In this document: in pieces, positions 4,016 to 43,135 of the stretch | Numbering within the stretch: the stretch's first letter is position 1 | Layout of the letters: each line of letters starts with the position of its first letter | IMG/VR virus record: IMGVR_UViG_3300023243_000165 | Coordinates: 1 to 58,736 of that record | Strand: one strand, 5' to 3' | From: a virus | Lineage: Duplodnaviria; Caudoviricetes | Length of the DNA stretch: 58,736 nucleotides | Translations under genes and position numbers: made by a program | The notes under the pieces: model-generated | Told to the model about the DNA's origin: nothing | Database searches by the model: none | What the model saw: only the letters and a program-made list of their open reading frames with translations

Positions 4016-6150
4016 TATCTTTTTCCATCAGGGTTAACGTCTGCTCTAAAAGTTCCGAATCTCCAAGTCTCATTAACATTATTATTTTGTATTTTTAAAT
4101 TAGCTAGTCTACCTCTTGCTCTAGTATCTATTTTTTCTGTTGTAGAGTTTATAGTAAAAGGCCCTAATTGGGAAGAAGTCCCTGTATCAATTGGGAAGTC
4201 TTTTAAAAATATTGTAACTACTGCATTCCCTTGTAAATTTTTAAAATCTGGTATAAATCTACTAACTCTCATTAGATATTCACCATCACCTCCTGTGGGT
4301 AAATCAAAATCCCCCGATTGAATATAAGCTGCGATAGCTGTTTCTGTTCCATTTAAAGCTATTTCATTATTACCAATCTCATGGGCATAATATAAAGAAG
4401 AGCCAAAAGTATTAGTTGCACCACTTAAATTTGATATAGTAGGTATAGCAGTTGAATCATAATATGTTGCATAAGGTACATCATAAGTACTTGCGTCTGC
4501 ATAAGAACTTCTAGCTAAAGTCATTGTAGACCAGTTATTCTCTACATAATTATAAACAACCGATCTATCATTTTGAACTGCTGGACTACCTAAAGGAGTA
4601 CCTGCTGGATAAAACCAAACTATTTCATTGAATAAAGAGTTGTGTGAAGCATAAATAATCTCACTAGAGGAATAATTAATACCTTCATTAGATCCAGTGG
4701 TCGTGAATACAAAATCTTCCACAAGCGATGGAAGTAATTTAACTGTACCATCAAATACAAAAAAGCCTCCGCCGGCACCCATCCAGAAAACTTTACCATC
4801 TGCATAAACAGCAGCATGCTGTCCAATACATCCACAGTTAGAGCCCACTTGTCTTATTGAGAAAGTAAAAGGGGGTCCTACAAACTGCATTTGATAAGCA
4901 GCTTGATCTGTTAAAATTAAGTTGTAATCTTTACCTGAAATAGCAGCTACAATTTTATTTCCTGTATCTAATCTAAAAGTTCCTGCCGTATTAACTGAAG
5001 TAGGTTCATATATATTATAATTCTCTTGATCACTGAATCTAATAAACATAGGGTCTTGTGTTGATGTGTCACCAATAGTTGTTTCTGTCCCAAAGTGAAC
5101 TACGTGCCTATCCCTATCTGAAGTTATTGTTGATCTTGTGGCAGTTGGAGCACCTACCATAATAACTGCTCTCTGTTCTAAAGGATTTGAATCAGCTGGA
5201 TTCCAAGTAAATGTTTTACCATCTTTAATTGTTGCAATTAATTGTTCTCCGAAGTTATCTAAAGACCATGAACCTGGGTCTAGAATAATAGTTGAGCTAG
5301 TTGTACCTGACCCCCAAGAAAGCCTGCTCCAATTACCTGTACCCCAACCATAACCATAAGTTTGAATTGTTGGACCAATATCTTCGTAAGGATTTATTGT
5401 AGCTCCTCCACCTGCCGTCATTCCTGTTCCAGTTTCAGTTGTTGTCATTTGAATTGTAAAAGAATTTGTAGCTATTGTAAGAATTTCAAAAGTATTTGTT
5501 GTAAAATCTGTTGTATTGTATCTTGTAACTGTTGCTTCTCTTACTGCAGTTGTATCTACATGAGCTACGGCAGTGGTACTATTAGTACCTCTTGTGCAAC
5601 CTGTTAGGTCATTTGTAGATATACTCGCATAGGTTATTAGCTCATCCCCTATTCTTACCGTTCCGGCGGCAGAAAAACCTGATGCACTCGTTAAAGTTAT
5701 TGTAGTATCAGAATCTGTTATAGCACCATTTAAAGTTGTAGTTTGTCCAGGCACTGTTACAGAACTTAAAGTAATATATTCCCCGACATCCAATGGGTGT
5801 GATGTTTTATTTACAGTTACAATATTTGATCCGTTGGTGCTTGTAAAAGTTGCACCTGTGATTGCTGTTGCTAGTGGAGTAATATCGTAAAATTTATCTT
5901 CATAATAAATGTATAATGCTTTTGATGTACCTAGTGCTGCATATCTTCTACCTTCTAAATCATTCCAAGTATGTTGAGCACGCGTAGGCCCTGCAATAGT
6001 TTCTTGTCCAATAGCGGTATAGCCACCTATTTTTTCTGGTTGACCATATCTAAATCTAACAAAATCACCATCTATCCACTGTCCTTCAGCACCCGATGGG
6101 GTATCTGCTTTATTAATACCTGGTGCTATTTTTACATTTGTTAAAGGCAT
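4015..6150 (-). CDS. Tail nozzle/stabilisation protein (P22 gp10-like beta-propeller) with inserted beta domains
   Basis: 711 aa; 'VRFRYGQPEKIGG', 'IRFSDQEN', 'NCGCIGQHA', 'YNYVENNW'; position before ejection genes. Confidence 0.8.
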   Translation of the reverse strand: MPLTNVKIAPGINKADTPSGAEGQWIDGDFVRFRYGQPEKIGGYTAIGQETIAGPTRAQHTWNDLEGRRYAALGTSKALYIYYEDKFYDITPLATAITGATFTSTNGSNIVTVNKTSHPLDVGEYITLSSVTVPGQTTTLNGAITDSDTTITLTSASGFSAAGTVRIGDELITYASISTNDLTGCTRGTNSTTAVAHVDTTAVREATVTRYNTTDFTTNTFEILTIATNSFTIQMTTTETGTGMTAGGGATINPYEDIGPTIQTYGYGWGTGNWSRLSWGSGTTSSTIILDPGSWSLDNFGEQLIATIKDGKTFTWNPADSNPLEQRAVIMVGAPTATRSTITSDRDRHVVHFGTETTIGDTSTQDPMFIRFSDQENYNIYEPTSVNTAGTFRLDTGNKIVAAISGKDYNLILTDQAAYQMQFVGPPFTFSIRQVGSNCGCIGQHAAVYADGKVFWMGAGGGFFVFDGTVKLLPSLVEDFVFTTTGSNEGINYSSSEIIYASHNSLFNEIVWFYPAGTPLGSPAVQNDRSVVYNYVENNWSTMTLARSSYADASTYDVPYATYYDSTAIPTISNLSGATNTFGSSLYYAHEIGNNEIALNGTETAIAAYIQSGDFDLPTGGDGEYLMRVSRFIPDFKNLQGNAVVTIFLKDFPIDTGTSSQLGPFTINSTTEKIDTRARGRLANLKIQNNNVNETWRFGTFRADVNPDGKR

Positions 6151-32670: not shown

Positions 32671-34146
32671 CTAATAATATTTATATTCCTTTGGAACATT
32701 GTAAAACTCATCCTCATAGTCGTTCATCATTTCTATGAAGTTTCCTTGACGGTATCTTAACACAGCCTGAGTGGTGCTGTCGACATAGTCATCATAGGCT
32801 CCATGAGGAAAAGCAGCACATTCCTCAATTACTTCCTCTGCATATTTCTCGTCTTCTGGATAGTAAATACCACCAGATTCGAATACTGGTGCGCAGGCGT
32901 TGACCCGTGAGTGTTTGTCCTTGCCCCTAGATGGAACGAATGGAATGACAGGAATCCCCATACGTCGGAACTCTTGCATAAGGGGTTCTCCTGTAGCCTT
33001 AGCTTCAATGATCACGGACTCCGGCTCCCAATATTTATACTGATCCATTGCAACTACTTTAAGTTCTGGAAAATCAAATTTACCTTTAAGGGCATCTAAT
33101 AATATTAATGCAGGTTTACCATCTTCATTTGGAAAAAATACACCCCATGTTGTTATAGCAGAATAATCGGCAGTTTCTTTTGCACTAAACGCAGTATCAT
33201 AAGATTGTATTATATGATGTAGTTTTGGAATTTTTTCTTTCTTCCAAGGGACCCACCATTCTCTTTTAAGAATTGCACCTTCCTCTGATGTAGGGTTCTG
33301 CATATATTGTGCAGACCAATTTCGAATAGGAACTGAAGCTTTAACTTTTTCTAATTCCTCTAGTTCCCAATACTCAGGCCAAACAGGTTTCCCTGAATCT
33401 AATATTGCAGGAAAAGAAATTACTTCCCAATTGTCAGCCTTAGGTTCTTTTTGAGCCTTAATTAAACGACCTGTCAAATCATCTTCTGCCCATCTAGTCA
33501 TTACAACTACAATTGAGCCTCCAGGTTGTAAACGTTGTCTAGGTCCTGACACATACCAATCATACGCTCTTTCCATAGCAGACTCTGACATAGAATCTTG
33601 CTCCGTATGTGGATCGTCAATAATAAGCAAATCAGCCCCTCGACCTGTGATAGATCCGCCAACACCCGCTGCAAAGTACTCACCGCCATGGTTAGTCTCC
33701 CACCTGCCTTTTGCTTTTGAGTCTTCCCTTAGTTTAACATCCCCAAAGATCTGTTTATACTCCCTTTGTTCCATAAGGTTCCTTACTTTAGAACCAAACC
33801 TTGATGATAATTCTGCATTGTGAGAAACTTGCATAATTTTTAAATTTGGATACTTCCCTATCATCCAAGCAGGAAACAAATAGGATGCAAATTCAGATTT
33901 AGTATGTCTAGGTGGCATATTGATTATGAGCCTCCCTTTTTTCTTATTAGAAATTCTTGTAAACTCAGCTGCTATATGTTGGTGGTGGCCCCACTTTTTA
34001 GGATCCGCATCTAGCCTACAAATAAAGTCAGGCCAAACTTCCTTCACAAAATATATAAAATTATCTTGACACAATTTAATGTGTTCAATCCATTTTTTTT
34101 CTACAGTTATTCTTAACTGGTCATTAGTTAGTAATTCTTTATTCAT
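32671..34146 (-). CDS. terL: Terminase large subunit
   Basis: Walker A-like 'MPPRHTKS', Walker B 'LLIIDDP', 'SYDTA', 'DDYVDS' RNase H motifs. Confidence 0.95.
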   Translation of the reverse strand: MNKELLTNDQLRITVEKKWIEHIKLCQDNFIYFVKEVWPDFICRLDADPKKWGHHQHIAAEFTRISNKKKGRLIINMPPRHTKSEFASYLFPAWMIGKYPNLKIMQVSHNAELSSRFGSKVRNLMEQREYKQIFGDVKLREDSKAKGRWETNHGGEYFAAGVGGSITGRGADLLIIDDPHTEQDSMSESAMERAYDWYVSGPRQRLQPGGSIVVVMTRWAEDDLTGRLIKAQKEPKADNWEVISFPAILDSGKPVWPEYWELEELEKVKASVPIRNWSAQYMQNPTSEEGAILKREWWVPWKKEKIPKLHHIIQSYDTAFSAKETADYSAITTWGVFFPNEDGKPALILLDALKGKFDFPELKVVAMDQYKYWEPESVIIEAKATGEPLMQEFRRMGIPVIPFVPSRGKDKHSRVNACAPVFESGGIYYPEDEKYAEEVIEECAAFPHGAYDDYVDSTTQAVLRYRQGNFIEMMNDYEDEFYNVPKEYKYY

Positions 34147-34637: not shown

Positions 34638-34982
34638 TTAGTTTAACTCCTTTGATTGAACTTTGATTTTGATTTCTTTAGTATCCATCTCAACTAAAAA
34701 CTCCTCATATACCTTTGGATATTTCTCCTTGAACTTTGATACATCAAATCGTTTCATTGTTCGTTTAATCAACTGAGCAAAACCCTCAACACCCTCAACC
34801 TTATCCAAAATAATAAGATTAGTTTTAATGGTTTCAAATAACTCAACATGAGTTGGTTTGATTAAGTCGTTAGCTTTTTTTTGTGCCTTAACTTGCTCAA
34901 CTGAATAATGATAATTAACAATATCATTTTGTTGAACTTTCGTTGCTTTCACTTGACGTTTAATTGTCTTTAGTGTTTTCAT
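34638..34982 (-). CDS. Hypothetical early protein
   Basis: 114 aa; 'RFDVSKFKEKYPKVYEEF'; AAGGAG RBS. Confidence 0.78.
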   Translation of the reverse strand: MKTLKTIKRQVKATKVQQNDIVNYHYSVEQVKAQKKANDLIKPTHVELFETIKTNLIILDKVEGVEGFAQLIKRTMKRFDVSKFKEKYPKVYEEFLVEMDTKEIKIKVQSKELN

Positions 34983-35019
34983 AACATTTCTCCTTTATAA
35001 GTTTAATTGTTATCCCATC

Positions 35020-35047
35020 TTTATAAGATATTAAAAAGTTTAATCAA
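35020..35047 (-). promoter_or_regulatory. Sigma70-like early promoter
   Basis: TTGATT-16-TATAAA followed by ATGGGATA box. Confidence 0.5.
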
Positions 35048-35173
35048 GCGATTATTTACTTTTATTTAAAAAAAGATTTAAGCTTATTTGAGTTGATATA
35101 GAGAAAGGTTAATCACTCATTACTAACACACATATAAAAAGATTAAGTTGTCCAAATTCCAACCGAGTTTTGT

Positions 35174-35265
35174 ACTGGCGACTGGCACTGGTGCCGTAGG
35201 TTTAGTTTAAGTTAAGCACACGACGGTGTGGGCGTGGGCGTGGGGCGAGGGTGTACACCCTCGCC
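35174..35265 (+). repeat. GC-rich tripartite repeat unit plus 22 bp palindrome
   Basis: CTGGTGCC..TAGTTTAA..GTGGGCGTGGGCGTGGGG; palindrome ggcgagggtgtacaccctcgcc at 35244-35265. Confidence 0.75.
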
Positions 35266-35347
35266 TTTAAACAGTCGTTATCTAGTGTTTAAACTCACTA
35301 GCCCCAACGGGTACGGAATCCGATTGAACTGTTTAAACCGTACTAAC

Positions 35348-35851
35348 TTAACAGATACGGAAACCGTTTGATTCTTCACAGAATCTTATAAACTCCTCAA
35401 CATTACCCATTGTAAATGGATAGCTTGAGCCATAAGAATATTTAGATTGTATCCAATCCCAAGTATCGTGGTCATCTTTAGGATAATCACATGGTGCTAT
35501 GTTGGTCTTGCCTACCTCTTGCTCAACTTTCTTACGCAACATCTCGTGACACAACTCAACGTGCTTGTTGTTTGCCTCGCTGACTTTCATCTCTCCCTCA
35601 ACCTCATGTATTACTTTTGATACCGTGCCGTCTTTGATAAGTGCCTTTAATTGCTTTGCGACTTGCATAGCTTTTTCTTCACTAACCTCATGCCCACTAT
35701 TAGTCTGCCAATGCTCTCTATCTTGTTCATCAATGACACCCGTTTTTTCTACAACGAAGTCTGCCAATCTTCTCCACCACCAAACATTGTTTCTAAAGTA
35801 TTCGCCCTTGTCTGTTTTGTGATTACCTAATGAGTATAAATCAAATCCCAT
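35348..35851 (-). CDS. Conserved early protein
   Basis: 'MGFDLY..YFRNNVWWWRRL..YPF..NVEEF..SNGFRIC'; strong RBS. Confidence 0.82.
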   Translation of the reverse strand: MGFDLYSLGNHKTDKGEYFRNNVWWWRRLADFVVEKTGVIDEQDREHWQTNSGHEVSEEKAMQVAKQLKALIKDGTVSKVIHEVEGEMKVSEANNKHVELCHEMLRKKVEQEVGKTNIAPCDYPKDDHDTWDWIQSKYSYGSSYPFTMGNVEEFIRFCEESNGFRIC

Positions 35852-35884
35852 TTTGTTTTCTCCTTTGTTAAGTTAATTTCTTCT

Positions 35885-35912
35885 TTCTTATCATATCCCA
35901 CCAACAATGCAA
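35885..35912 (-). promoter_or_regulatory. Sigma70-like early promoter
   Basis: TTGCAT-16-TAAGAA with GTGGGATA in spacer. Confidence 0.45.
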
Positions 35913-35934
35913 ATGTTTTTTTTTCTGACCTTTT

Positions 35935-36123
35935 CCAGCTCGTCCTGAAGCACTGGTGCCTGGTGCCCAGCTCCTTATGTTCATGTGTACCATTAGCAAC
36001 GTCGACGGTAGTGGGCGTGGGGGTAGAGCTTCCCGATCCAGCAACCATTTCCCAGCTGGCCAGCTGGTGCCGTTTACTAGTTTAAGGACCTCTTCCAGCA
36101 ACGTCGACTGCGTGGGCGTGGGC
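35935..36123 (+). repeat. Two GC-rich tripartite repeat units
   Basis: CTGGTGCC...AGCAACGTCGAC..GTGGGCGTGGG twice. Confidence 0.78.
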
Positions 36124-36233
36124 TCAGGTAATCCCTGTGCATCCGCGGACCACGGCCGTCAGTAAAAGGATGTAGATCCATCCAGCCGCTCTAGGATAGA
36201 AGACTAGTGGTACAACAAGAACAAGCAACCATG

Positions 36234-36554
36234 TCAGGCTGCCTCCAGCTCAGCCAGTAACTGCTGGGCGCAAACCTCTACAGCGAACCAAACCAAGTCG
36301 TTCTTCAGTGTGGTAAGGGAGTGTGGGTCTTTGCAAATGTTATACAACATCAACCCATTCAGGATCCCAGCAGCGTCAGCTGCATCACTGAGCTCCTGCC
36401 ATACCTCCTGTTCATGAGCATCGTAGAAGGCGGCGGTCTCGTTGTAGTATGTGAGACCTGGCACTCCGCCACTACAGCCGTGCTTCGCGATGTCAGAGAT
36501 CAAGAAGGATTCGTCCTTCTCTCCTTGTGCCAACCAATCTTTTATACTACTCAT
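36234..36554 (-). CDS. Acidic early protein
   Basis: 'DIAKHGCSGGVPGLTYYNET..LKNDLVWFAVE'. Confidence 0.8.
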   Translation of the reverse strand: MSSIKDWLAQGEKDESFLISDIAKHGCSGGVPGLTYYNETAAFYDAHEQEVWQELSDAADAAGILNGLMLYNICKDPHSLTTLKNDLVWFAVEVCAQQLLAELEAA

Positions 36555-36741
36555 CTACCACCTCCGACTCTTTCCATGTGTTACCACTAGCAATGCATGC
36601 GGTGCCTTTAGCCCCTGTTAGGGCGTAGACTTTGCCTGTCTCAGGTTTGTCTGCGTCTGTAGGCTTTGAGTCATCTTTGATATACTCAGTCCCATAGTAA
36701 TCATTCATTTGCTGTATTATATTTTTTTTTATTTTCCCCAT
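36547..36741 (-). CDS. Hypothetical early protein
   Basis: 64 aa; GAGG RBS; coupled. Confidence 0.7.
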   Translation of the reverse strand: MGKIKKNIIQQMNDYYGTEYIKDDSKPTDADKPETGKVYALTGAKGTACIASGNTWKESEVVDE

Positions 36742-37070
36742 GTGATGCCCTCCTCGTCGGTCTTGAATTTAACTTTGTCTCTTAGCTTTAACTGCGAAAG
36801 TATCTTAGGTACGTTATCCAAGGTGCCAACACCCTTGAGTCTAGATCCTTTGGTAATCCTTACCCACATCTTTTCCGATTGACCACGCTTCTTAAACCAC
36901 ACGTAGACGTAGTCTTGCATGTTCCTCTGCCCCTCAAGAGCTTTGATTCGAAAGTATGTTTCCTTGCCATGCTCTGCACATGTGTAGACTACATTACCTT
37001 TGGCTTCTTCAGAGTCCAATGGATTTTTCCAAATAAAGTTATCTGTTATATTTTTTTTGATATTTACCAT
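36729..37070 (-). CDS. Early protein, YegJ/DUF2314-like
   Basis: 'EKMWV..GTLDNVP'; start at 37070 behind GGGGGTG. Confidence 0.7.
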   Translation of the reverse strand: MVNIKKNITDNFIWKNPLDSEEAKGNVVYTCAEHGKETYFRIKALEGQRNMQDYVYVWFKKRGQSEKMWVRITKGSRLKGVGTLDNVPKILSQLKLRDKVKFKTDEEGITWGK

Positions 37071-37153
37071 ATGATCACCCCCATGTAGGTAAGCAATCCT
37101 AGCCAAGCAATTGCAAAAAGCAATTCTGGAAGTATTGTGTTTGTCATTTTCAT
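37064..37153 (-). CDS. Early membrane peptide (29 aa)
   Basis: MKMTNTILPELLFAIAWLGLLTYMGVIIW; AAGGAG RBS directly after promoter. Confidence 0.65.
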   Translation of the reverse strand: MKMTNTILPELLFAIAWLGLLTYMGVIIW

Positions 37154-37173
37154 TCTCCTTTGGTTATACATTA

Positions 37174-37202
37174 TAGATAAGACATGATGGGATAAATGTC
37201 AA
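37174..37202 (-). promoter_or_regulatory. Sigma70-like early promoter
   Basis: TTGACA-17-TATCTA with TATCCCAT in spacer. Confidence 0.65.
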
Positions 37203-37249
37203 GAGAACTTTTCATCTTTTTTTACAGCAGGAAAGCAAAAGCATCAGGT

Positions 37250-37690
37250 TCCGAGCTGGCACGCCAGTCCCCTTCAGTTCTATGGAATCCCGACCAAATT
37301 AGTCAGGTATTGGTAGTGGGGGTGTGGGTCGAGAAAGGAAAATGAATTAACCAATGCCCACACCTTGAAGAAATCATACCACATTTCCAGCATCTCAGCA
37401 CGCCAGTCTGCCTGGCCAGCACCAGTGTCTTTTAGTTTAAAGGATAGTTGCAGATGTGGGAGTAGGCGTGGGCGTGGGATCAGGGATTTTCTCTTCCCAG
37501 CTGGTGCCGTCAGAGCTCTGGCGCCAGGGACGTTGGAGCTTAGGTCTATTCGTAGCGTGGGGGTGGGATCTCGGTGCGTGGGCGTGGGATCACGCTTCAG
37601 GATGGCCAGCTCCCAGCACCAGGGACGCTGCGATGGTGATCAAAGTTTTAAGATCCGTGTGGCGGGCGAGTGGGACGGCGGTGCGGGACT
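37250..37690 (+). repeat. Three to four GC-rich tripartite repeat units
   Basis: CCAG/CTGG clusters, TAGTTTAA at 37433, GTGGG(C/G)GTGGG-like at 37316, 37468, 37557, 37578. Confidence 0.72.
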
Positions 37691-37979
37691 CACGATCCAC
37701 GGCCAGAAGTACATAGGGCGCCTTCACGAGGGGTCTATTCAAGATAAATACTTTACCACCTGCTTTCTGATACTTAATATGCCAATTGATTTGGTACTTT
37801 GATAAGCCTTCGTTCTTGCTGGTGTTGGCTTTGAGTTCAATCCAAAAAACTTGACTGTTTACGACACAGTGGACATCGGGAATACCATTAATTGTATTAG
37901 ATTCTATGCGAGTAAAATGCCAAGTGCTGTCTAAATTTTTAAGCTGTTGCCAAATTCTAGATTCTTTATTTTGTGCCAT
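37590..37979 (-). CDS. VRR-NUC/Holliday-junction-resolvase-like PD-(D/E)XK nuclease
   Basis: 'GIPDV..FWIELK..LSKYQINW..AGGKVFIL'. Confidence 0.85.
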   Translation of the reverse strand: MAQNKESRIWQQLKNLDSTWHFTRIESNTINGIPDVHCVVNSQVFWIELKANTSKNEGLSKYQINWHIKYQKAGGKVFILNRPLVKAPYVLLAVDRESRTAVPLARHTDLKTLITIAASLVLGAGHPEA

Positions 37980-37990
37980 AATTTAATCGG

Positions 37991-38263
37991 TCAAGAATTG
38001 CAGATATGACCTATAACAGGGTTACCATTTATAGTATGTATGTAAATATTTTCACCTTGTTTTGGGTCCAATCTTTCATTAATTTTTAGATGGTTTTGCC
38101 ACCAAATTTCACATGGAACATCTATTTCGTAAGATACCAGGCTATAGCCATCAGTTCCACTAATATAAATAATTCCAATCCGCTCACTTAATTCTGATAA
38201 GCTTAGTGATGACGGAGTTAGGAATAATAGTACTACCACCAATAGTTTCAATATAACCTTCAT
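37991..38263 (-). CDS. Hypothetical, possibly exported protein
   Basis: Signal-peptide-like N-terminus; overlaps upstream gene. Confidence 0.45.
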   Translation of the reverse strand: MKVILKLLVVVLLFLTPSSLSLSELSERIGIIYISGTDGYSLVSYEIDVPCEIWWQNHLKINERLDPKQGENIYIHTINGNPVIGHICNS

Positions 38264-38522
38264 CGCCTTCCTTTTTATCTTTTAAACCGTAGTCAGAGAA
38301 TATTCTTGTGACACCTTTGTCTGTTGAATATAACCAACCCCTAGATATCATTCTACCAAGTTGAGATGTATGTAATTGATCAAAAGTTTGCCAGCCCGCT
38401 TCACCAACAATATCAAGCCAATGCACTTCTACAAAAGGGTACTTACTTATTTTTTCTTTATGGATTTTTTTATCAGGTTGTATGGTTTCAGCTTTCTTTC
38501 TAAATAGTCTTTTACTTCTCAT
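38184..38522 (-). CDS. Conserved phage protein
   Basis: 'VHWLDI..GW..SRGWL..IIP'. Confidence 0.75.
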   Translation of the reverse strand: MRSKRLFRKKAETIQPDKKIHKEKISKYPFVEVHWLDIVGEAGWQTFDQLHTSQLGRMISRGWLYSTDKGVTRIFSDYGLKDKKEGDEGYIETIGGSTIIPNSVITKLIRIK

Positions 38523-38617
38523 TTTTTCTCCCCGTTAATACACTTACGATTCCAACAGAAGTTGTTAAAGTACTATTATGCACTTCATTAAAAACTGTCA
38601 AGAAATTATTCCAATCT

Positions 38618-39130
38618 TTACTCTTTACTAATTTCAATTGGCGTAACGTCAATGATATTTTTAGCTTCTCCGATTTTTGATTCAAGCTCCTCAAGTCTTT
38701 TCTCCAGTTGTTCTCTGTTCATGCTCTCTAAACCAATATGGCTTATTTCCTTTCTATCAACAAAATGCCCTGCCATTTGATCTCTACGATACTGAGCAGT
38801 TATCGCTGCTGTCATCTGGCCTTTTTTCTCTGAGGTTTCCCTCATTCTAGCATAATGTTTATATGATAAAAGTTTGTCCTTTTCTTCTTTTTCTAGCTCT
38901 TGAGACATTCTTTTTTCAAAATATCTAACAACATGAGGATTCTTGTCTGGATTTAATAATCTACTTGCTTGATCAGTAGGGCCATATTTGTTAGTTGAGG
39001 TAAAACCAGCTTGTTTGGCAGCTTCAACTTTGCTAATCTCACCATAGTTAGAAACATACACATCAACAAATTTACGTTGTTTAGGTGTTAATTCAGATAT
39101 AGTCTTTAATTGATTAGCTTTTTTTGGCAC
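38618..39130 (-). CDS. terS: Terminase small subunit
   Basis: 'LTPKQRKFVDVY..AAKQAGF..ASRLL..P.V' HTH; likely GTG start 39130 (upstream ORF extension runs through repeats). Confidence 0.82.
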   Translation of the reverse strand: MPKKANQLKTISELTPKQRKFVDVYVSNYGEISKVEAAKQAGFTSTNKYGPTDQASRLLNPDKNPHVVRYFEKRMSQELEKEEKDKLLSYKHYARMRETSEKKGQMTAAITAQYRRDQMAGHFVDRKEISHIGLESMNREQLEKRLEELESKIGEAKNIIDVTPIEISKE

Positions 39131-39140
39131 TCGTTTACTA

Positions 39141-39479
39141 TATACCCCTTCCTTAGAAAAATAAACTACTAGTAAAAAAAATGCACCCCCCTGCCTCAAG
39201 GAGTAATTTACTCCTAGCTTTTCTAGGAGTACTCCTAGCTTTTTTTTCATTTCTAGGAGTGAATTTATGCTTATATTTCAATAAGATAAGGTGTTTACTC
39301 CTAGATTCCTAGCTTTTTTCCTAAGTCCTAGAGAGTTTTTTATTTTTTTTTTTTCTAAGGAGAGGGTATACAGGGTAAATTTCTAGGAATCCACGTAATA
39401 CCTAGTGTTTTTTACTCCATTTCTAGGAGTAACCCTGGCCCGTGAACCGTGAACCGTGGCTCTTGTCTCTTGTCTCTTT
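39141..39479. repeat. Iteron and inverted-repeat cluster (putative origin or pac region)
   Basis: Six exact CTAGGAGT/ACTCCTAG plus variants; 21 bp inverted repeats at 39141-39161 and 39350-39370; T-tract; heptamer tandems. Confidence 0.75.
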
Positions 39480-39553
39480 TATCTCGGCTCTCGTACCCTT
39501 ATCAATGACGAGGGTATATTTACTTTAGAACCATTATAAACTAAACTTTATCC

Positions 39554-39583
39554 TTGACTTATTAACCACGATCCATGTATGAT
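39554..39583 (+). promoter_or_regulatory. Sigma70-like promoter for small RNA
   Basis: TTGACT-18-TATGAT. Confidence 0.55.
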
Positions 39584-39588
39584 GAATT

Positions 39589-39659
39589 GTTTTCATAACA
39601 ACTTAGTTCTTTGGTTAAGTTAGATAGGGGCACTTCGGGAGACTGAGCTGCCCCTTTTT
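39589..39659 (+). ncRNA. Candidate ~70 nt small regulatory RNA
   Basis: Between promoter and terminator aggggca...tgcccct-tttt; no plausible ORF; complementary to early-gene leaders. Confidence 0.5.
39626..39659 (+). terminator. Rho-independent terminator
   Basis: AGGGGCA...TGCCCCT followed by T-run on + strand. Confidence 0.65.
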
Positions 39660-40119
39660 ATATGCTGGTAACTAAATTCGATATAAACACAGTCGTACAA
39701 AGATCCACTGCATGTCTTAAATGAGTCAAATGCTTTCTATGATATTTTTTAGATTCTACTTCCTTACAATTACGATACTTAGTAAATTGTGTTGAATATT
39801 TTTTCCAAGCAAAATTTCGAGGAGAGAACTGAATATCCCCTTTCATAATAGCCATTTTATATCTTTCTTTTACATGGTCAGGTTCAAACCCTGAGTAATA
39901 GCATACCGTATAAAAATCAGTGACATTGGACATAAGCCACTCATGAGCATCACATTTATATATTGAAGGCTTTCGGTCCTGGGACTTTGATCCAGCGTCC
40001 TCTATGGCGTTAACAAGCACACCACGCCACATCTTTTCTTCGGGCTCAACATCAGTACTTAATAATTGAGTTGCGAAGCTAGTGCCCATAAGTTTTAATA
40101 AGGAAAGAGAGTAAGTCAC
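39658..40119 (-). CDS. Conserved phage protein
   Basis: 'EEKMWRGVLVNAIEDA..A..W..DF..VC..G'; start probably MGTSF. Confidence 0.75.
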   Translation of the reverse strand: MTYSLSLLKLMGTSFATQLLSTDVEPEEKMWRGVLVNAIEDAGSKSQDRKPSIYKCDAHEWLMSNVTDFYTVCYYSGFEPDHVKERYKMAIMKGDIQFSPRNFAWKKYSTQFTKYRNCKEVESKKYHRKHLTHLRHAVDLCTTVFISNLVTSI

Positions 40120-40297
40120 GGTAATAAATAGTTTGATCTATATTATCTCTACTTTTTTTGTGCATTTCATAATCAATATGTACACCATCAATTACTTCGT
40201 GTATATCCTGCCCGTTGTGTTTTGGTTGATCAGGTTCTTTTAAAAAAATGTCTCTTGCCATAAGGTTATTATATTGGTTTAACACCATCTTTTCCAC
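40079..40297 (-). CDS. Hypothetical protein
   Basis: Coupled ORF; start uncertain. Confidence 0.65.
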   Translation of the reverse strand: MEKMVLNQYNNLMARDIFLKEPDQPKHNGQDIHEVIDGVHIDYEMHKKSRDNIDQTIYYRDLLSFLIKTYGH

Positions 40298-40544
40298 CTT
40301 TGATGACCTTTAATTTGTAAAGCTTAGCCTGTGTTTTAAATTTTTTTTCTTTTCTGAATTGCCAGACAGCATTAATATCAGCCATAAACTGTGGATCAAA
40401 GCTTTCTCTGTATCCTAATTTATCCCCCATATACAAACGAAACATACTCGTTGTAACGGTTTTATATTCTTTATCGGTTAGTTTCCCTGCTAAAATTTGC
40501 AGGGATCCCATTAATGGGTTAATGGATGGTGTTTTTTTTGCCAC
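40269..40544 (-). CDS. Hypothetical protein
   Basis: 91 aa, ends with LKVIKGGK. Confidence 0.7.
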   Translation of the reverse strand: MAKKTPSINPLMGSLQILAGKLTDKEYKTVTTSMFRLYMGDKLGYRESFDPQFMADINAVWQFRKEKKFKTQAKLYKLKVIKGGKDGVKPI

Positions 40545-40779
40545 TTATGAACTCCTTCAACAAATCAATTAATTTAAGCACATAGGCCGTTGAGACTGTT
40601 GCGGGTTCGTGGTTCGTGTTTATTTTATCTGTTTCAAAGTGACCTGCTCCTTTACACTCTTTGCATGTCTGCGTTTCTGAGTATGGAATTATTCTAACAA
40701 ATCCATTCCCTTTGCAGTTAGCACATATTTTGTAAGGATCACCGTATTTCATCTTCTTTTTATATCTTTTTTTAGCCAT
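40519..40779 (-). CDS. DnaJ-type zinc-finger protein
   Basis: Two CxxCxGxG motifs. Confidence 0.78.
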   Translation of the reverse strand: MAKKRYKKKMKYGDPYKICANCKGNGFVRIIPYSETQTCKECKGAGHFETDKINTNHEPATVSTAYVLKLIDLLKEFISGKKNTIH

Positions 40780-41011
40780 GAGTAAAGTCTTTTTTTCTAG
40801 GGTTTCTGTTCTTAGGCCACCTACATTTAAACTTCTGTACTACGACATTGTCTAAATTTTTCTCATCGCCAGTTACAATGAGAATATTATGACCATTTTT
40901 GTGTGAGTGCACATGATGAGTAATGAAGTTATTAACCTCAATCTCTCTTGTATTAGTTTTTAAATCATCAATGTATTTATTAAGATCAATACAATCTTTG
41001 TCAGTCATCAT
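40772..41011 (-). CDS. Hypothetical protein
   Basis: 79 aa coupled ORF. Confidence 0.7.
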   Translation of the reverse strand: MMTDKDCIDLNKYIDDLKTNTREIEVNNFITHHVHSHKNGHNILIVTGDEKNLDNVVVQKFKCRWPKNRNPRKKDFTHG

Positions 41012-41163
41012 TACTTACGCTCCACACCCCTTAAAATATTCAAGGCTGCATCACAACTTTTTGATACACTTACCCTTAAATTATCTAAGCTATCTTGTGT
41101 TTCTTTTAAAGTTTTCTCAAGCTTTAAAATAGTTTCTTTAGCTTTTTTTATTTCTTCTTCCAT
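41011..41163 (-). CDS. Small coiled-coil protein (50 aa)
   Basis: MEEEIKKAKETILKLEKTLKETQDSLDNLR...; GAGG RBS; TAATG-coupled. Confidence 0.65.
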   Translation of the reverse strand: MEEEIKKAKETILKLEKTLKETQDSLDNLRVSVSKSCDAALNILRGVERK

Positions 41164-41401
41164 TTGTACCTCTTGTTAGTTTCTTTTTTTTAGTTGTAAT
41201 TGGTGCTGCATCTACTTTTAAAATATGCTCTTTGTATGCAGGAATAGTCATTTTATTTTTTATAGCTTGAAATTGAACATACTCGTTCACAAGCTTTGAG
41301 ATCATTGATGCAGGTGACCTAAACTTTTGATTACAAAGTCCTTGTAAGACATCATAGTCAGGTTTTCTTACGGCCACACTCTTAAATTTATTTGTATCCA
41401 T
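41138..41401 (-). CDS. Ribbon-helix-helix-like DNA-binding protein
   Basis: 'KFKSVAVRKPDYDVLQGLC..RSPASMISKLV' beta-alpha-alpha pattern. Confidence 0.65.
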   Translation of the reverse strand: MDTNKFKSVAVRKPDYDVLQGLCNQKFRSPASMISKLVNEYVQFQAIKNKMTIPAYKEHILKVDAAPITTKKKKLTRGTNGRRNKKS

Positions 41402-41585
41402 GTTTTTTTAACTCCTCTTTCATTTGTTGTTTAGTTTTTATTTTTGGATCTGGTAATACAATCATCATTCTTTCAAAGTATGGATTGTTGTCGCTGAAGT
41501 TCCAACCTCTTTTTCTAGTTAATCTAGCATGAGCTTGGTACTGTCTATTTTTCCAATCTATCTCGCTAAATTTTAAAGTAGCCAT
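41388..41585 (-). CDS. Hypothetical protein
   Basis: Likely start MATLKF at 41585. Confidence 0.65.
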   Translation of the reverse strand: MATLKFSEIDWKNRQYQAHARLTRKRGWNFSDNNPYFERMMIVLPDPKIKTKQQMKEELKKHGYK

Positions 41586-41668
41586 ATTGATGCCCCTAAC
41601 ACTAATGCAAGTTTTGGAAATAATAATGTAAGTATTACTATTCCAATTATTAAATGAATCCAACTCAT
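41573..41668 (-). CDS. Membrane peptide (31 aa)
   Basis: MSWIHLIIGIVILTLLFPKLALVLGASIWLL; ATGA-coupled, GGAG RBS. Confidence 0.6.
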   Translation of the reverse strand: MSWIHLIIGIVILTLLFPKLALVLGASIWLL

Positions 41669-41862
41669 CTGCTCTCCAATTCATTCATTGCTAATATAGT
41701 ACACAAATCTGTGTGTAATGGTTTTTCATACATATCTTTATTTTTAATATGCACATTCTTTAACTTACCAGCTATCTCATCAAAATTAGTTCCTTCTGAT
41801 AGAGCAATATCTATCTTCTCAACTAATGATTTAAATAACTTTGATTTACTTTTTAGGTTCAT
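41665..41862 (-). CDS. Hypothetical protein
   Basis: First gene after promoter 41885-41913; AAGGAG RBS. Confidence 0.75.
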   Translation of the reverse strand: MNLKSKSKLFKSLVEKIDIALSEGTNFDEIAGKLKNVHIKNKDMYEKPLHTDLCTILAMNELESR

Positions 41863-41884
41863 TTTGTTTTCTCCTTATCCCATT

Positions 41885-41913
41885 AATATAAGAAATCCCA
41901 TGTCATATGTCAA
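41885..41913 (-). promoter_or_regulatory. Sigma70 promoter with two ATGGGAT boxes
   Basis: TTGACA-17-TATATT. Confidence 0.75.
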
Positions 41914-41939
41914 GCTGTATTTTTGTGCTAATATAATTT

Positions 41940-42170
41940 ATGAAAGAATTTTTTCTATTTGGTATTTTATGCACAATTAACCCAATGACTGGTGTAGAAC
42001 AGTGCGCCTATATCAATGAGGCTCCAATAGTATATTACTATGAAAAAACCTGTAAAGACGTAGCAGTTAAAAAAGTCAATGAAATAGGGACTAATTTAAC
42101 TAAAGTAGGGGTCAAAATAACTCAATTAAAGATAGCCTGCATTGTTGACAAGTCTAAAGTAAACACTTGA
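41940..42170 (+). CDS. Small Cys-containing exported-like protein
   Basis: 76 aa, hydrophobic N-terminus, four Cys. Confidence 0.65.
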   Translation: MKEFFLFGILCTINPMTGVEQCAYINEAPIVYYYEKTCKDVAVKKVNEIGTNLTKVGVKITQLKIACIVDKSKVNT

Positions 42171-42195
42171 TTTTACACCAAATAGTTGATAAGAT
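42167..42195 (+). promoter_or_regulatory. Sigma70 promoter giving leaderless mRNA
   Basis: TTGATT-17-TAAGAT, 6 nt before ATG 42202. Confidence 0.6.
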
Positions 42196-42201
42196 AATCA
42201 C

Positions 42202-42465
42202 ATGAAGCAATATCGTTTTCAATGTTACGCAGCTGGGCTATATTTCACTAGTGTCGTAAACGCTGCTAATGATGAGGATGCGATAGAAGGCTTCGCACAG
42301 AATATAATTGATAAAAAGTATTCTGTAGAAACCGATGGTTTCGGTCGTGGTAAACGTCGAATCCATCTTACTTATGAGGAGCTAGATAATGGCACTACAA
42401 AAGTTGATATCGGAGAAGCTACAGCTGGAATCCAAATGGGCCAGCCAAGCATTGTCGCAGGGTAG
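42202..42465 (+). CDS. Hypothetical protein
   Basis: 87 aa downstream of promoter. Confidence 0.7.
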   Translation: MKQYRFQCYAAGLYFTSVVNAANDEDAIEGFAQNIIDKKYSVETDGFGRGKRRIHLTYEELDNGTTKVDIGEATAGIQMGQPSIVAG

Positions 42466-42574
42466 AGTTACTACCGACATGAAGTGGATCGATATTAAAA
42501 TTAAAGAATTAAGAGTTGCAATTAACAACCAAAGTGTAGTTGATGCAAATACTCTTTATAAAAAAACTGCTTAA
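42389..42574 (+). CDS. Small coiled-coil protein
   Basis: GAGGAG RBS; 'LESKWAS..GRVTTDMKWID'. Confidence 0.72.
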   Translation: MALQKLISEKLQLESKWASQALSQGRVTTDMKWIDIKIKELRVAINNQSVVDANTLYKKTA

Positions 42575-42605
42575 TTAGTAGTTTTATATTAATTTTCTAA
42601 AATCA

Positions 42606-42764
42606 TTAATTTGGTAAAGGACCTTGCACCGCTTTTTTTAAGGCACACTCTGCACAGAAATATTCTTTATTCTCTATAACTACTGCTTTAGATTTACAGA
42701 TCTTACATTCTCTGTAAATAGATGAGGAACTTTCTCTGTGTATTTTTTCATTTTTCCCTGCCAT
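42606..42764 (-). CDS. Small zinc-finger protein (52 aa)
   Basis: Hand-translated ...ECKICKSKAVVIENKEYFCAECALKK. Confidence 0.6.
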   Translation of the reverse strand: MAGKNEKIHRESSSSIYRECKICKSKAVVIENKEYFCAECALKKAVQGPLPN

Positions 42765-43135
42765 AATTTATCCATTAGTTGTTTCATGTCCGGGTGAAGC
42801 TCCCAGGTCAGAACATTTAGTCTTGAAAAGAAATTTACTTCTTCTCTTGTTTTAGCAACATAGAAAAAACTAGCATCACCATGTTTTTTAATAGCTCTAA
42901 ATCTATGATTACCATTTCTAATTTCATTTTTAAGGTCTATAACTATTGGACATAGTAAACCATTTTGTTCGATATCATTTCTAACTACAGCTTTAAAATC
43001 TGCATGGGTTCCGTGAATCATTTTAAGATCTTCAAACTTTCTAAGTTCTAGTCTATGTTTAAATATTGTATATTGGGGCCAAATAGTTTCACCAAAGCCT
43101 GCAATTATATTTTTATGAAGCTTGTCCAAAATCAT
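42680..43135 (-). CDS. ParB/Srx-like domain protein
   Basis: 'GLLCPIVI..IRNGNHRFRA'. Confidence 0.7.
   Translation of the reverse strand: MILDKLHKNIIAGFGETIWPQYTIFKHRLELRKFEDLKMIHGTHADFKAVVRNDIEQNGLLCPIVIDLKNEIRNGNHRFRAIKKHGDASFFYVAKTREEVNFFSRLNVLTWELHPDMKQLMDKLWQGKMKKYTEKVPHLFTENVRSVNLKQ

What the first reader, a model, noticed from the sequence alone, without database searches (positions are those of the whole stretch)
39554..39659. Candidate trans-acting sRNA antisense to the ribosome-binding regions of three early genes
Seen: a + strand promoter (TTGACT-18-TATGAT) and terminator bracket ~70 nt with no plausible ORF. TGTTTTCATAACA (39588-39600) is identical to 34974-34986, so it is complementary to the start codon region of minus-strand gene 34638..34982. 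CTTTGGTTAAGTTA (39609-39622) matches the leader of gene 35348..35851 (35863-35875, one bulge), and CTTTGGTTA matches the leader at 37158-37166. UUCUUUG can pair with CAAAGGA (the SD) using one G:U, and sits in the loop of an AACTTA/TAAGTT hairpin. The three targets are the first genes after each early promoter. Inference: a phage sRNA that shuts off early translation.
Basis: partly seen in the sequence, partly recalled or inferred. Interest (0 to 1): 0.75.

Follow-up and report, generated by a model that had tools for sequence, protein, structure and literature searches.

The report
Conserved small RNA gene in pelagiphages
A structured RNA gene of about 70 bases, pointing against the phage's other genes just upstream of its DNA-packaging genes, is conserved in ocean viruses related to the SAR11 phage HTVC023P; it may damp translation of a few phage genes, but that role is untested.

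Summary
The sequence facts hold. The exact matches, however, are no more than chance gives: 126 of 400 random 74-nt windows of this genome have a same-strand match of 13 nt or more.

Comparison with relatives supports a real small RNA gene on the + strand. Sixty-six distinct copies from viral and metagenome contigs share these features:
- a CTTGACT -35 box;
- two helices, with changes on both sides in 16 of 23 pairs (0 of 500 shuffles reach this);
- 196 G:U cells against 5 A:C cells, which fixes the folded strand as +;
- a GAGA tetraloop at the terminator apex and a T-run on the + strand.

Each genome holds one copy. Rfam has no match.

The best-conserved part is the unpaired core (UCUUUCUAAGUUAG in most relatives, UUCUUUGGUUAAGUUAG here).

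Trans-repression stays unproven:
- duplex energies are not outliers;
- HTVC023P, which lacks a confident copy, carries the same leader motif;
- "early" is unverified, since the genes lie between terS and terL.

No strand-resolved RNA data were available. The scan has not noted this element on other DNA.

The parts
39554..39559 (+). -35 box TTGACT (CTTGACT with the preceding C)
   Evidence: Present in 27 of 28 position-chosen relatives that carry the element; the 28th is cut by its locus end. TTGACT in 65 of 66 extracted copies; L040's copy is seen.
39578..39583 (+). -10 box TATGAT, 18-nt spacer
   Evidence: Group A has TATGAT or TATCAT. Group B has TA-anchored hexamers at a 17-nt spacer (TAATGG, TATCTA, TAACTA and others) without a T at the last position.
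39590..39660 (+). Predicted small RNA, about 70 nt. The 5' end is inferred from the -10 box (+/- 2 nt); the 3' end lies in the T-run.
   Evidence: Folds. Covariance-model match at 39579-39662, 34.7 bits, E 1.6e-4. Covariation and strand test on 66 copies.
39588..39600 (+). 13-mer TGTTTTCATAACA, complementary to the start-codon region of gene 34638..34982
   Evidence: GTTGTTTTCATA is kept in group A, but the following bases vary. A match of this length is common by chance.
39606..39626 (+). Conserved core GTTCTTTGGTTAAGTTAGATA: an anti-SD-like UUCUUUG plus the anti-leader UUAAGUUAG
   Evidence: Kept in group A apart from one variant, L111, which has GTTCCATTGG. The group-B counterpart TCTTTCTAAGTTAGTTGG has 13 invariant columns, at positions 29-42 of the first sequence, and 13 of 18 invariant columns.
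39627..39659 (+). Intrinsic terminator: stem, inner stem closing a GAGA tetraloop (39639-39642), then TTTTT at 39655-59
   Evidence: Seven of 12 outer-stem pairs change on both sides. Wobble pairs occur only on the + strand. The T-run is at least 4 long in 65 of 66 copies.
39658..39660 (-). Stop codon of the upstream 153-aa gene (39658..40119), lying inside the RNA's T-run
   Evidence: ORF list and sequence. The gene is a homologue of HTVC023P gp19.
39533..39538 (-). TATAAT on the sense strand, 14 nt downstream of GTCAAG (the complement of the RNA's -35): a possible back-to-back promoter towards terS
   Evidence: GTCAAG-N14/15-TATAAT occurs in 16 of 85 distinct stretches, including all group-A ones.
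34966..35011 (-). Start region of gene 34638..34982, a candidate target
   Evidence: Second-best non-self duplex in the - strand scan, -23.6 kcal/mol. The orthologous start region is the best (G002) or second-best (G001) start region.
35852..35890 (-). Leader of gene 35348..35851 (AAATTAACTTAACAAAGGAG), a candidate target
   Evidence: ACTAAC or TAACTTAAC is kept in 25 of 26 distinct sRNA/leader pairs.
37147..37175 (-). Leader of a 27-aa hydrophobic peptide gene (ATG at 37146; TATAACCAAAGGAG), a candidate target
   Evidence: (-22.2 kcal/mol, third-best non-self site).

Best explanation
A real, non-coding small RNA gene lies at 39554-39660 on the + strand. It is antisense to nearly all other genes of this HTVC023P-type pelagiphage.

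Anatomy. It has its own host-type promoter (CTTGACT, 18 nt, TATGAT). It yields an RNA of about 70 nt here and about 80 nt in most relatives. The RNA has a 5' hairpin, then an exposed and almost invariant pyrimidine-rich core, then an intrinsic terminator capped by a GAGA tetraloop.

Most likely mechanism (inferred, not shown). The core pairs with the A/C-rich leader motif (A)ACUAACUUA(AC) and the adjoining Shine-Dalgarno purines of a few phage mRNAs. The anti-SD part is U-rich, so its U residues can pair with either A or G. The candidate mRNAs are the first genes behind CTTGAC-type promoters between terS and terL: the 27-aa peptide gene at 37146, gene 35851 and gene 34982. Pairing there would hinder ribosome binding.

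Origin (inferred). The RNA's DNA looks like a copy of such a leader plus start region, read from the opposite strand.

My odds: about 0.85 that the RNA gene is real, and about 0.35-0.4 that this trans mechanism is its function.
For: Shown: the element is conserved.
- It is present downstream of the 153-aa gene in 28 of 29 distinct position-chosen relatives. The 29th contig carries it about 570 nt further on (coordinates).
- 66 distinct full copies were collected, with one copy in each of 5 relatives' records searched whole and one match in the window.

Shown: it folds as RNA.
- 97.5% of cells form pairs, against 84.0% in shuffles. 16 of 23 pairs change on both sides, including all 8 pairs of the 5' hairpin. 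0 of 500 shuffles reach this, and slid registers give 34-55% paired.

Shown: the folded strand is +.
- G:U cells number 196 and A:C cells 5. In the core pairs the counts are 57 and 5.
- The apex GG[GAGA]CU is a GNRA loop only on the + strand.
- The T-run follows the stem on the + strand.

Shown: it is not coding.
- There is no + strand ORF.
- The - strand mini-ORFs give 46 distinct peptides of 1-46 aa in 81 stretches, and 7 stretches have no ATG.

Shown: the unpaired core is the best-conserved part. It has 13 of 18 invariant columns, against 2 of 8 and 2 of 8 in the hairpin arms and 1 of 12 and 3 of 12 in the terminator arms (the same appears).

Shown: the core is complementary to the named leaders.
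- Orthologous leaders of the three gene families keep 7-10 nt of contiguous complementarity to the local RNA in 21, 26 and 10 distinct combinations.
- The motif lies 8-40 nt upstream of starts at 5 of 14 sites in G001, 5 of 14 in G002 (p 0.0015 each) and 3 of 16 in the window (p 0.087).
- In the window, two of the three best non-self duplexes fall at the 34982 and 37146 start regions.
- The group-A-specific AACCAAAG is shared by the group-A RNA locus and the group-A peptide leader.
Against: - No strand-resolved expression data exist.
- In group B the -10 hexamer lacks the usual final T.
- Duplex energies are not outliers. Start regions below the background 1st percentile number 1 of 97, 4 of 92 and 1 of 102, against means of 1.6, 0.8 and 1.2 for shuffled seeds.
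- With the whole 5' part as query, the top hits in G001 and G002 are mostly inside genes.
- The 13-mer is within chance.
- HTVC023P has no model match at E 0.01 or better genome-wide, yet shows the same leader-motif enrichment, 5 of 14 sites, p about 0.001. The motif therefore does not depend on the RNA.
- Two relatives have lost the motif in one leader while the RNA is unchanged: the L030 leader of the 35851 orthologue, and the L123/L002 peptide leader.
- Folding z-scores are similar on both strands. Energy alone does not pick a strand.
- The pattern scans required TAAGTTAG and GGGAGACT, so invariance of those 16 bases in the enlarged set is partly circular. It does hold in the position-chosen set.
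Confidence: 0.4

Rival explanations
1. Boundary or cis-antisense element. The same + strand RNA gene is real, but it acts locally at the junction between the upstream operon and the terS operon. Its promoter fires head-on into sense read-through, and its -35 shares base pairs with the upstream part of a sense TATAAT promoter. The RNA is perfectly complementary to any sense read-through transcript, which could be cleaved as a duplex, as with lambda OOP and cII.
For: - The element always sits between the 153-aa gene and terS.
- The terminator abuts the stop codon of the upstream gene.
- On the sense strand the hairpin is followed by a poor U-tract (CCCCUAUCU here, CCCUUUUCC or CCCUUCUCC in relatives), so read-through is likely.
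- GTCAAG-N14-TATAAT on the sense strand overlaps the RNA's -35 in all group-A copies and in 6 group-B stretches (16 of 85 stretches).
Against: - Complementarity in cis is automatic, so this reading does not explain why the unpaired core is the best-conserved part while the stems drift.
- The overlap with the upstream coding sequence is at most 3 nt, unlike OOP.
- The sense TATAAT is missing as an exact hexamer in 69 of 85 stretches.
- There are no data on sense read-through.
Confidence: 0.25
2. The RNA is real, but its conserved core and GNRA apex serve another partner: host (SAR11) mRNAs, or a protein that it binds or titrates. The resemblance to phage leaders would then be only a trace of its origin.
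For: - An invariant single-stranded core and an invariant apex fit any sequence-specific partner.
- The phage-internal target signal is weak.
- The leader motif is independent of the RNA.
Against: - Nothing positive: no host genome was scanned here and no protein partner was identified.
- The neighbouring 153-aa protein has no recognisable fold or family.
Confidence: 0.2
3. There is no + strand RNA. The region is a sense-strand feature: the terminator of the upstream operon followed by a decayed or regulatory copy of a leader and start region. The + strand promoter is then a chance look-alike.
For: - The - strand reads like a start region, with leader motif, purine tract and ATGAAA.
- HTVC023P has, at the same place after gp19, a similar pseudo-start region and further on a start region with a 31-aa ORF.
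- Folding z-scores are similar on both strands.
- Promoter-like sites are as common as in shuffles.
Against: - G:U against A:C is 196 to 5.
- The GAGA tetraloop exists only on the + strand.
- The T-run is on the + strand, while the sense-side tail is poor.
- CTTGACT is invariant at a fixed distance.
- L108 has changed ATG to ACG with a compensating change in the other arm.
- The mini-ORFs are not conserved.
Confidence: 0.08

Closest known systems
Lambda OOP RNA (antisense to cII)
   Same: A short RNA with its own promoter and intrinsic terminator, transcribed against the main operon at the 3' end of a sense gene. OOP acts as an antisense RNA on cII mRNA and promotes its decay through RNase III (review PMC12197685, passages seen). 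Its size of about 77 nt is recalled.
   Different: Here the overlap with the upstream coding sequence is at most the stop codon. The best-conserved part is a core that matches distant leaders. The phage is a marine podovirus-type pelagiphage with no sign of lysogeny genes in what I examined. There is no sequence or Rfam relation.
P1/P7 c4 RNA (and P4 CI RNA, recalled)
   Same: A phage RNA whose exposed complementary stretches pair around the ribosome binding site of phage mRNA and block translation. [quoted passage not shown]
   Different: c4 is cut out of the same transcript as its target and serves immunity (recalled). Here there is a separate promoter on the opposite strand, several candidate targets 2-5 kb away, and no match to any Rfam model, so none to a c4 model either (that Rfam holds a c4 family is recalled).
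Bacterial trans-acting sRNAs with a seed and a Rho-independent terminator (Hfq-type)
   Same: The same architecture: a 5' hairpin, a conserved single-stranded seed, then a terminator hairpin with a U-tail. The same predicted action at the SD region.
   Different: It is encoded by a lytic-type phage. Whether the host has a chaperone for it was not tested. Target energies are not outliers.
A/U-rich leader enhancers upstream of the SD, such as the epsilon sequence UUAACUUUA of the T7 gene 10 leader (recalled, not from a call)
   Same: The leader motif that the RNA would pair with (UUAACUUAAC-AAAGGAG) resembles such an enhancer in sequence and in position.
   Different: This concerns the putative target, not the RNA. 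No function of the motif was tested. It is also present in HTVC023P.

Membership tests
Any Rfam 15 family (which would include a phage c4 model if Rfam holds one; recalled) | A match to a curated covariance model | tested here: not met
   0 matches at gathering score in the whole window. 0 matches at E up to 1 in L001 (window 37800-41200) and L089, a group-B copy.
Intrinsic (Rho-independent) terminator | A GC-rich stem-loop immediately followed by a U-run on the transcribed strand | tested here: met
   Folds. Stem covariation. The longest T-run in the tail is at least 4 in 65 of 66 copies and at least 5 in 61 of 66.
Sigma-70-type promoter | -35 TTGACA-like and -10 TATAAT-like hexamers 16-18 nt apart | tested here: inconclusive
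   The window scores 10 of 12, and the -35 is invariant. Group-B -10 hexamers keep TA but lack the final T. The same TATCTA type stands at a 17-nt spacer behind CTTGACA before the peptide gene at 37146. Host promoter rules were not tested.
Structured non-coding RNA (general criterion) | Compensatory base changes that keep helices, beyond controls | tested here: met
   16 of 23 pairs have changes on both sides. 155 cells against 50.0 in shuffles. 0 of 500 shuffles reach any of the five measures. Slid controls give 14-33 such cells.
OOP-like cis-antisense RNA | Substantial overlap with the 3' part of a sense coding sequence | tested here: not met
   Only the stop codon at 39658-60 lies under the T-run. 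In L010 the ORF ends at 5528 and the A-run of the hairpin starts about 3 nt further on.
OOP-like cis-antisense RNA | RNase III-dependent cleavage of the duplex with the sense RNA | not testable with these tools
   This needs RNA end mapping in infected cells.
c4-type or trans anti-RBS RNA | Exposed stretches complementary to the ribosome binding region of the target mRNAs, kept across relatives | tested here: inconclusive
   Complementarity of 7-13 nt is kept in the three gene families. The energies are not outliers. The motif is also present without a confident RNA copy.
Protein-coding micro-gene on the - strand | An ORF conserved in length and sequence | tested here: not met
   46 distinct peptides of 1-46 aa in 81 stretches, 7 of them without an ATG. 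L108 has ACG in place of ATG, with a compensating change in the other arm.

The most novel reading that the evidence does not exclude
A clade within the HTVC023P type carries a 'pan-leader' riboregulator. [quoted passage not shown]) A leader and start region was copied and is read backwards from its own promoter. This gives an RNA whose U-rich anti-SD stretch can wobble-pair with many SD variants, and whose invariant core recognises the shared leader motif. One 70-80 nt RNA could thereby time the translation of a whole set of promoter-proximal phage genes. It would be the first regulatory RNA described for viruses of SAR11.
Probability: 0.3. Interest if true: 0.75.

Novelty: new member of a known kind. 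Interest (0 to 1): 0.55.

Why it matters
[quoted passage not shown] In the one relative studied by RNA-seq, HTVC027P, the temporal gene classes are mosaic and all early genes are of unknown function (same paper).

Two full-text searches found no paper on a regulatory RNA of a pelagiphage: 'pelagiphage' with 'small RNA' returned 2 unrelated papers, and the five-term search listed none among the 10 of its 60 papers shown.

A conserved, structurally supported RNA gene at the border of the packaging module gives a concrete handle on how these phages order their gene expression. A diverged positional counterpart may exist in the cultured phage HTVC023P. That phage has a laboratory host, so the question can be tested directly.

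Tried and rejected
1. Expression data. The look-up of sequencing runs gave only runs kept as assembled contigs, with small shares of the query words. I laid four metatranscriptome runs on 35000-43000. The bin 39539-39805 had low summed depth (1.67, 1.99, 0.02, 0.56), and none of the 32 listed pieces covers 39554-39660; 122 more pieces were not shown. Contigs show neither strand nor ends, and they lose short RNAs. This says nothing for or against the RNA.

2. Folding energy as a strand test. The + strand is more stable in 31 of 31 copies, but shuffles show this is composition, with similar z-scores on both strands. I dropped it in favour of counting G:U against A:C.

3. Target prediction by duplex energy. 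There was no enrichment at start regions beyond shuffled seeds. These were crude gene calls of my own and took no account of accessibility.

4. k-mer hits of the complement: 7 of 33 9-mer positions fall in start zones, which is weak.

5. The upstream 153-aa protein. It has no PHROG, Pfam, PDB-sequence or atlas name. The AlphaFold model is all-helical with pLDDT 71. Foldseek against the PDB gave no match at E 0.001 or better. I left it as unknown.

6. More distant relatives.
- The model found nothing convincing in 36 loci with terS identity of 48-65%, apart from a GGGAGAC-loop hairpin on the sense strand of L071/L072 (E 0.74). I treat that as possibly chance.
- HTVC027P and phage 023Pt_psg01 gave nothing at E 0.01 or better in whole records. 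In the stretches around terS with filters off, their best matches were E 0.17 and 0.073. Both have terS on the other strand.
- HTVC023P gave only weak matches.

7. blastn of 39000-40200 against the phage collection found no match. There are no tRNA genes.

8. Supplementary Table S3 of PMC12753301 lists the temporal class of each HTVC027P gene.

9. I did not scan any SAR11 genome for targets or for Hfq or RNase III.

Full report
CONTEXT. The window is a complete virus record of 58,736 bases (CheckV 100%), and almost all of its genes lie on the - strand. Its large terminase is 76% identical to that of Pelagibacter phage HTVC023P. The phage is therefore a relative of the HTVC023P-type pelagiphages, and its host is probably SAR11; the host is inferred from the relative, not shown. 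The candidate lies in a 407-nt gap between a 153-aa gene of unknown function (39658..40119, -) and the small terminase gene (38618..39250, -; phrog_51). The large terminase is at 32671..34146.

THE OBSERVATION. None of them stands out from chance by itself.
- Promoter-like sites are as frequent as in shuffles: 28 found, 27.0 expected.
- 126 of 400 random 74-nt windows have an exact same-strand match of 13 nt or more elsewhere.
- 9-mers of the complement hit 33 positions across the genome.

RELATIVES. Searches with the two flanking proteins gave 80 and 38 loci from viral contigs. I took the 226 nt after the 153-aa gene from 36 of the 38 loci plus the window; two truncated matches, L112 and L113, were left out. 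This gave 29 distinct sequences.
- 28 of the 29 carry the element.
- The 29th, L101, has about 570 nt inserted before it. The element of that contig is in L030 (coordinates).

Two subgroups appear.
- Group A comprises the window and 6 other distinct copies.
- Group B comprises all the rest. It shares the -35 box, the motif UAAGUUAG, the pyrimidine tract and the terminator. It also has a clear 8-9 bp 5' hairpin (UGAUUAUG-UUU-CAUAAUCA).

Pattern scans of viral contigs (41 stretches) and metagenome contigs (81 stretches) raised the set to 66 distinct full copies. All 66 match a covariance model built from 26 group-B copies. The window has one match, and so does each of five related records searched whole.

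IT IS A FOLDED RNA. On the 57 distinct aligned rows, 97.5% of cells form standard pairs, against 84.0% in shuffles. 16 of 23 pairs carry changes on both sides, including all 8 pairs of the 5' hairpin. No shuffle out of 500 reaches any of the five measures, and sliding the partners drops pairing to 34-55%. Some copies have quite different hairpin sequences at the same place (L108, L096, L013, L184, L212). The alignment was fitted to the model, which leans towards the structure. However, the helices are flanked by invariant blocks, so the register is not in doubt.

THE STRAND. Minimum free energy favours the + strand in 31 of 31 copies. Shuffles show that this is base composition, and z-scores are alike on both strands, so I did not use it.
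- The decisive count is of wobble pairs. Cells that pair only on the + strand (G:U) number 196, and cells that would pair only on the - strand (A:C) number 5.
- Without the A-run/U-run pairs and one invariant G:U, the counts are 57 and 5. The five A:C cells sit in the outermost hairpin pair or in rows where the hairpin differs.
- The terminator apex GG[GAGA]CU is a GNRA tetraloop closed by G-C and G:U on the + strand only.
- The run of T follows the stem on the + strand. On the sense strand the tail is CCCCUAUCU here and CCCUUUUCC or CCCUUCUCC elsewhere.

PROMOTER. CTTGACT is invariant.
- The -10 box is TATGAT or TATCAT at 18 nt in group A.
- In group B the hexamer at 17 nt keeps TA but ends in G, A or C. 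This is a weak point.
- The same TATCTA type stands at 17 nt behind CTTGACA before the peptide gene at 37146. Other sense promoters of the phage also start with CTTGA.
- I recall, without a call, that alphaproteobacterial promoters are described as CTTGAC-N17-CTATAT and are laxer at the end of the -10 box.

NOT CODING. The + strand has no ORF. The - strand reads like a start region, with leader motif, purine tract and ATGAAA. The ORFs that follow give 46 different peptides of 1-46 aa in 81 distinct stretches, a few of which may be chance pattern hits. Seven stretches have no ATG. L108 has ACG with a compensating change in the other arm.

WHAT IS CONSERVED MOST. In group B the unpaired stretch between the helices has 13 of 18 invariant columns. 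The hairpin arms have 2 of 8 and 2 of 8, and the terminator arms have 1 of 12 and 3 of 12. Eight bases of that stretch, and the apex, were required by my scan pattern, so the enlarged set is partly circular. The protein-anchored alignment did not require TAAGTTAG, and it shows the same 13 invariant columns.

TARGETS. The complement of the core is (A)ACUAACUUA plus a purine tract.
- Leaders of the orthologues of genes 34982, 35851 and the 27-aa peptide gene keep 7-10 nt of this, next to the SD, in 21, 26 and 10 distinct RNA/leader combinations.
- The motif lies 8-40 nt upstream of start codons at 5 of 14 sites in each of two complete relatives (p 0.0015 each), and at 3 of 16 sites in the window (p 0.087).
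- In the window, two of the three best non-self duplexes on the - strand are the 34982 and 37146 start regions.
- The group-A-specific AACCAAAG is shared by the RNA locus and the group-A peptide leader.

Against this:
- Scans with the core alone find start regions below the background first percentile in 1 of 97, 4 of 92 and 1 of 102 cases. Shuffled seeds do as well.
- With the whole 5' part as query, the best sites in the two relatives are mostly inside genes.
- One relative has lost the motif before the 35851 orthologue and another before the peptide gene, with the RNA unchanged.
- HTVC023P has no model match at E 0.01 or better genome-wide, yet has the same leader-motif enrichment, 5 of 14 sites. 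The motif therefore exists for its own reasons. It resembles leader enhancers such as the T7 epsilon sequence (recalled).

ORIGIN AND WIDER RELATIVES. HTVC023P gp19 is a homologue of the 153-aa protein (36% identity, E 8e-37). Right after gp19 lies a hairpin followed by a pseudo-start region similar to the one here. On the opposite strand, two weak model matches (16.3 and 20.6 bits) are found in a 351-nt search (fold). HTVC023P also has an antisense protein gene, gp20, at this place. In group B a second, terminator-less copy of the unit lies upstream of the RNA's promoter. The picture fits a leader copy that came to be read from the other strand.

LOCAL GEOMETRY. In group A and in six group-B stretches, the complement of the -35 box (GTCAAG) is followed after 14 nt by TATAAT on the sense strand (16 of 85 stretches). 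This would be a back-to-back promoter towards terS. It keeps the cis rival alive.

EXPRESSION. Only assembled contigs of metatranscriptomes were on offer, and they cannot show strand, ends or short RNAs.

LITERATURE. No paper on a pelagiphage regulatory RNA was found (listings only). I saw passages of PMC12753301 and of the review PMC12197685. PMC9599517 held none of my search terms.

VERDICT. The RNA gene is very likely real, at about 0.85. It is a new RNA family of a known kind. It is not demonstrated, and three rivals remain.

Noticed in passing
window 39200-39440 (- strand leader of terS); L010 5760-6000; L114 3600-3760: Repeats of CTAGGA / TACTCCTAG and a CACGG-type tandem lie upstream of terS. 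They are conserved in kind in group B and in HTVC023P. They may be terS recognition (pac) sites or sites for a late regulator.
   Followed up: partly
window 35100-35340, 35900-36300, 37230-37650: GC-rich repeats (CCCACGCCCACGCC, GGCACCAG) lie in the gaps between terS and terL of a 36% GC genome. Metatranscriptome contigs of relatives differ there by inserted or lost repeat units, for example a 12-base insertion behind 35233.
   Followed up: no
window 37064-37147 (-): A hydrophobic peptide gene of 27 aa (ATG at 37146) stands as the first gene behind CTTGACA-17-TATCTA. It is conserved in 13 loci by tblastn.
   Followed up: partly
L010 5630-5720 and other group-B loci: A second, terminator-less copy of the unit lies upstream of the RNA's promoter. 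On the RNA's strand it reads CTAAGGAGG-AAAAA-ATG-ACT-TGA, a strong SD with a two-codon ORF whose stop overlaps the -35 box. On the sense strand the same bases form an anti-SD-like UCCUCCUUAG.
   Followed up: no
L114 2922-3320 (HTVC023P gp20) and 2883-2978: At the equivalent place HTVC023P has an antisense protein gene (gp20) whose 3' UTR carries GUUAGUUAAC before its terminator. It also has an unannotated sense ORF of 31 aa behind a leader-motif start region.
   Followed up: partly
L071 and L072, 5104-5133 (+): A hairpin with the same GGGAGAC apex lies on the sense strand, just upstream of the 144-aa homologue of the 153-aa gene, and is followed directly by TTGACA. It may be chance (E 0.74).
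   Followed up: no
window 41876-41913, 35011-35040, 35894-35900, 37187-37210: The sense promoters share CTTGA-type -35 boxes and an ATGGGAT box, inverted at 37188. Many group-B RNA promoters carry TAATGGGAAG at the same relative place.
   Followed up: partly
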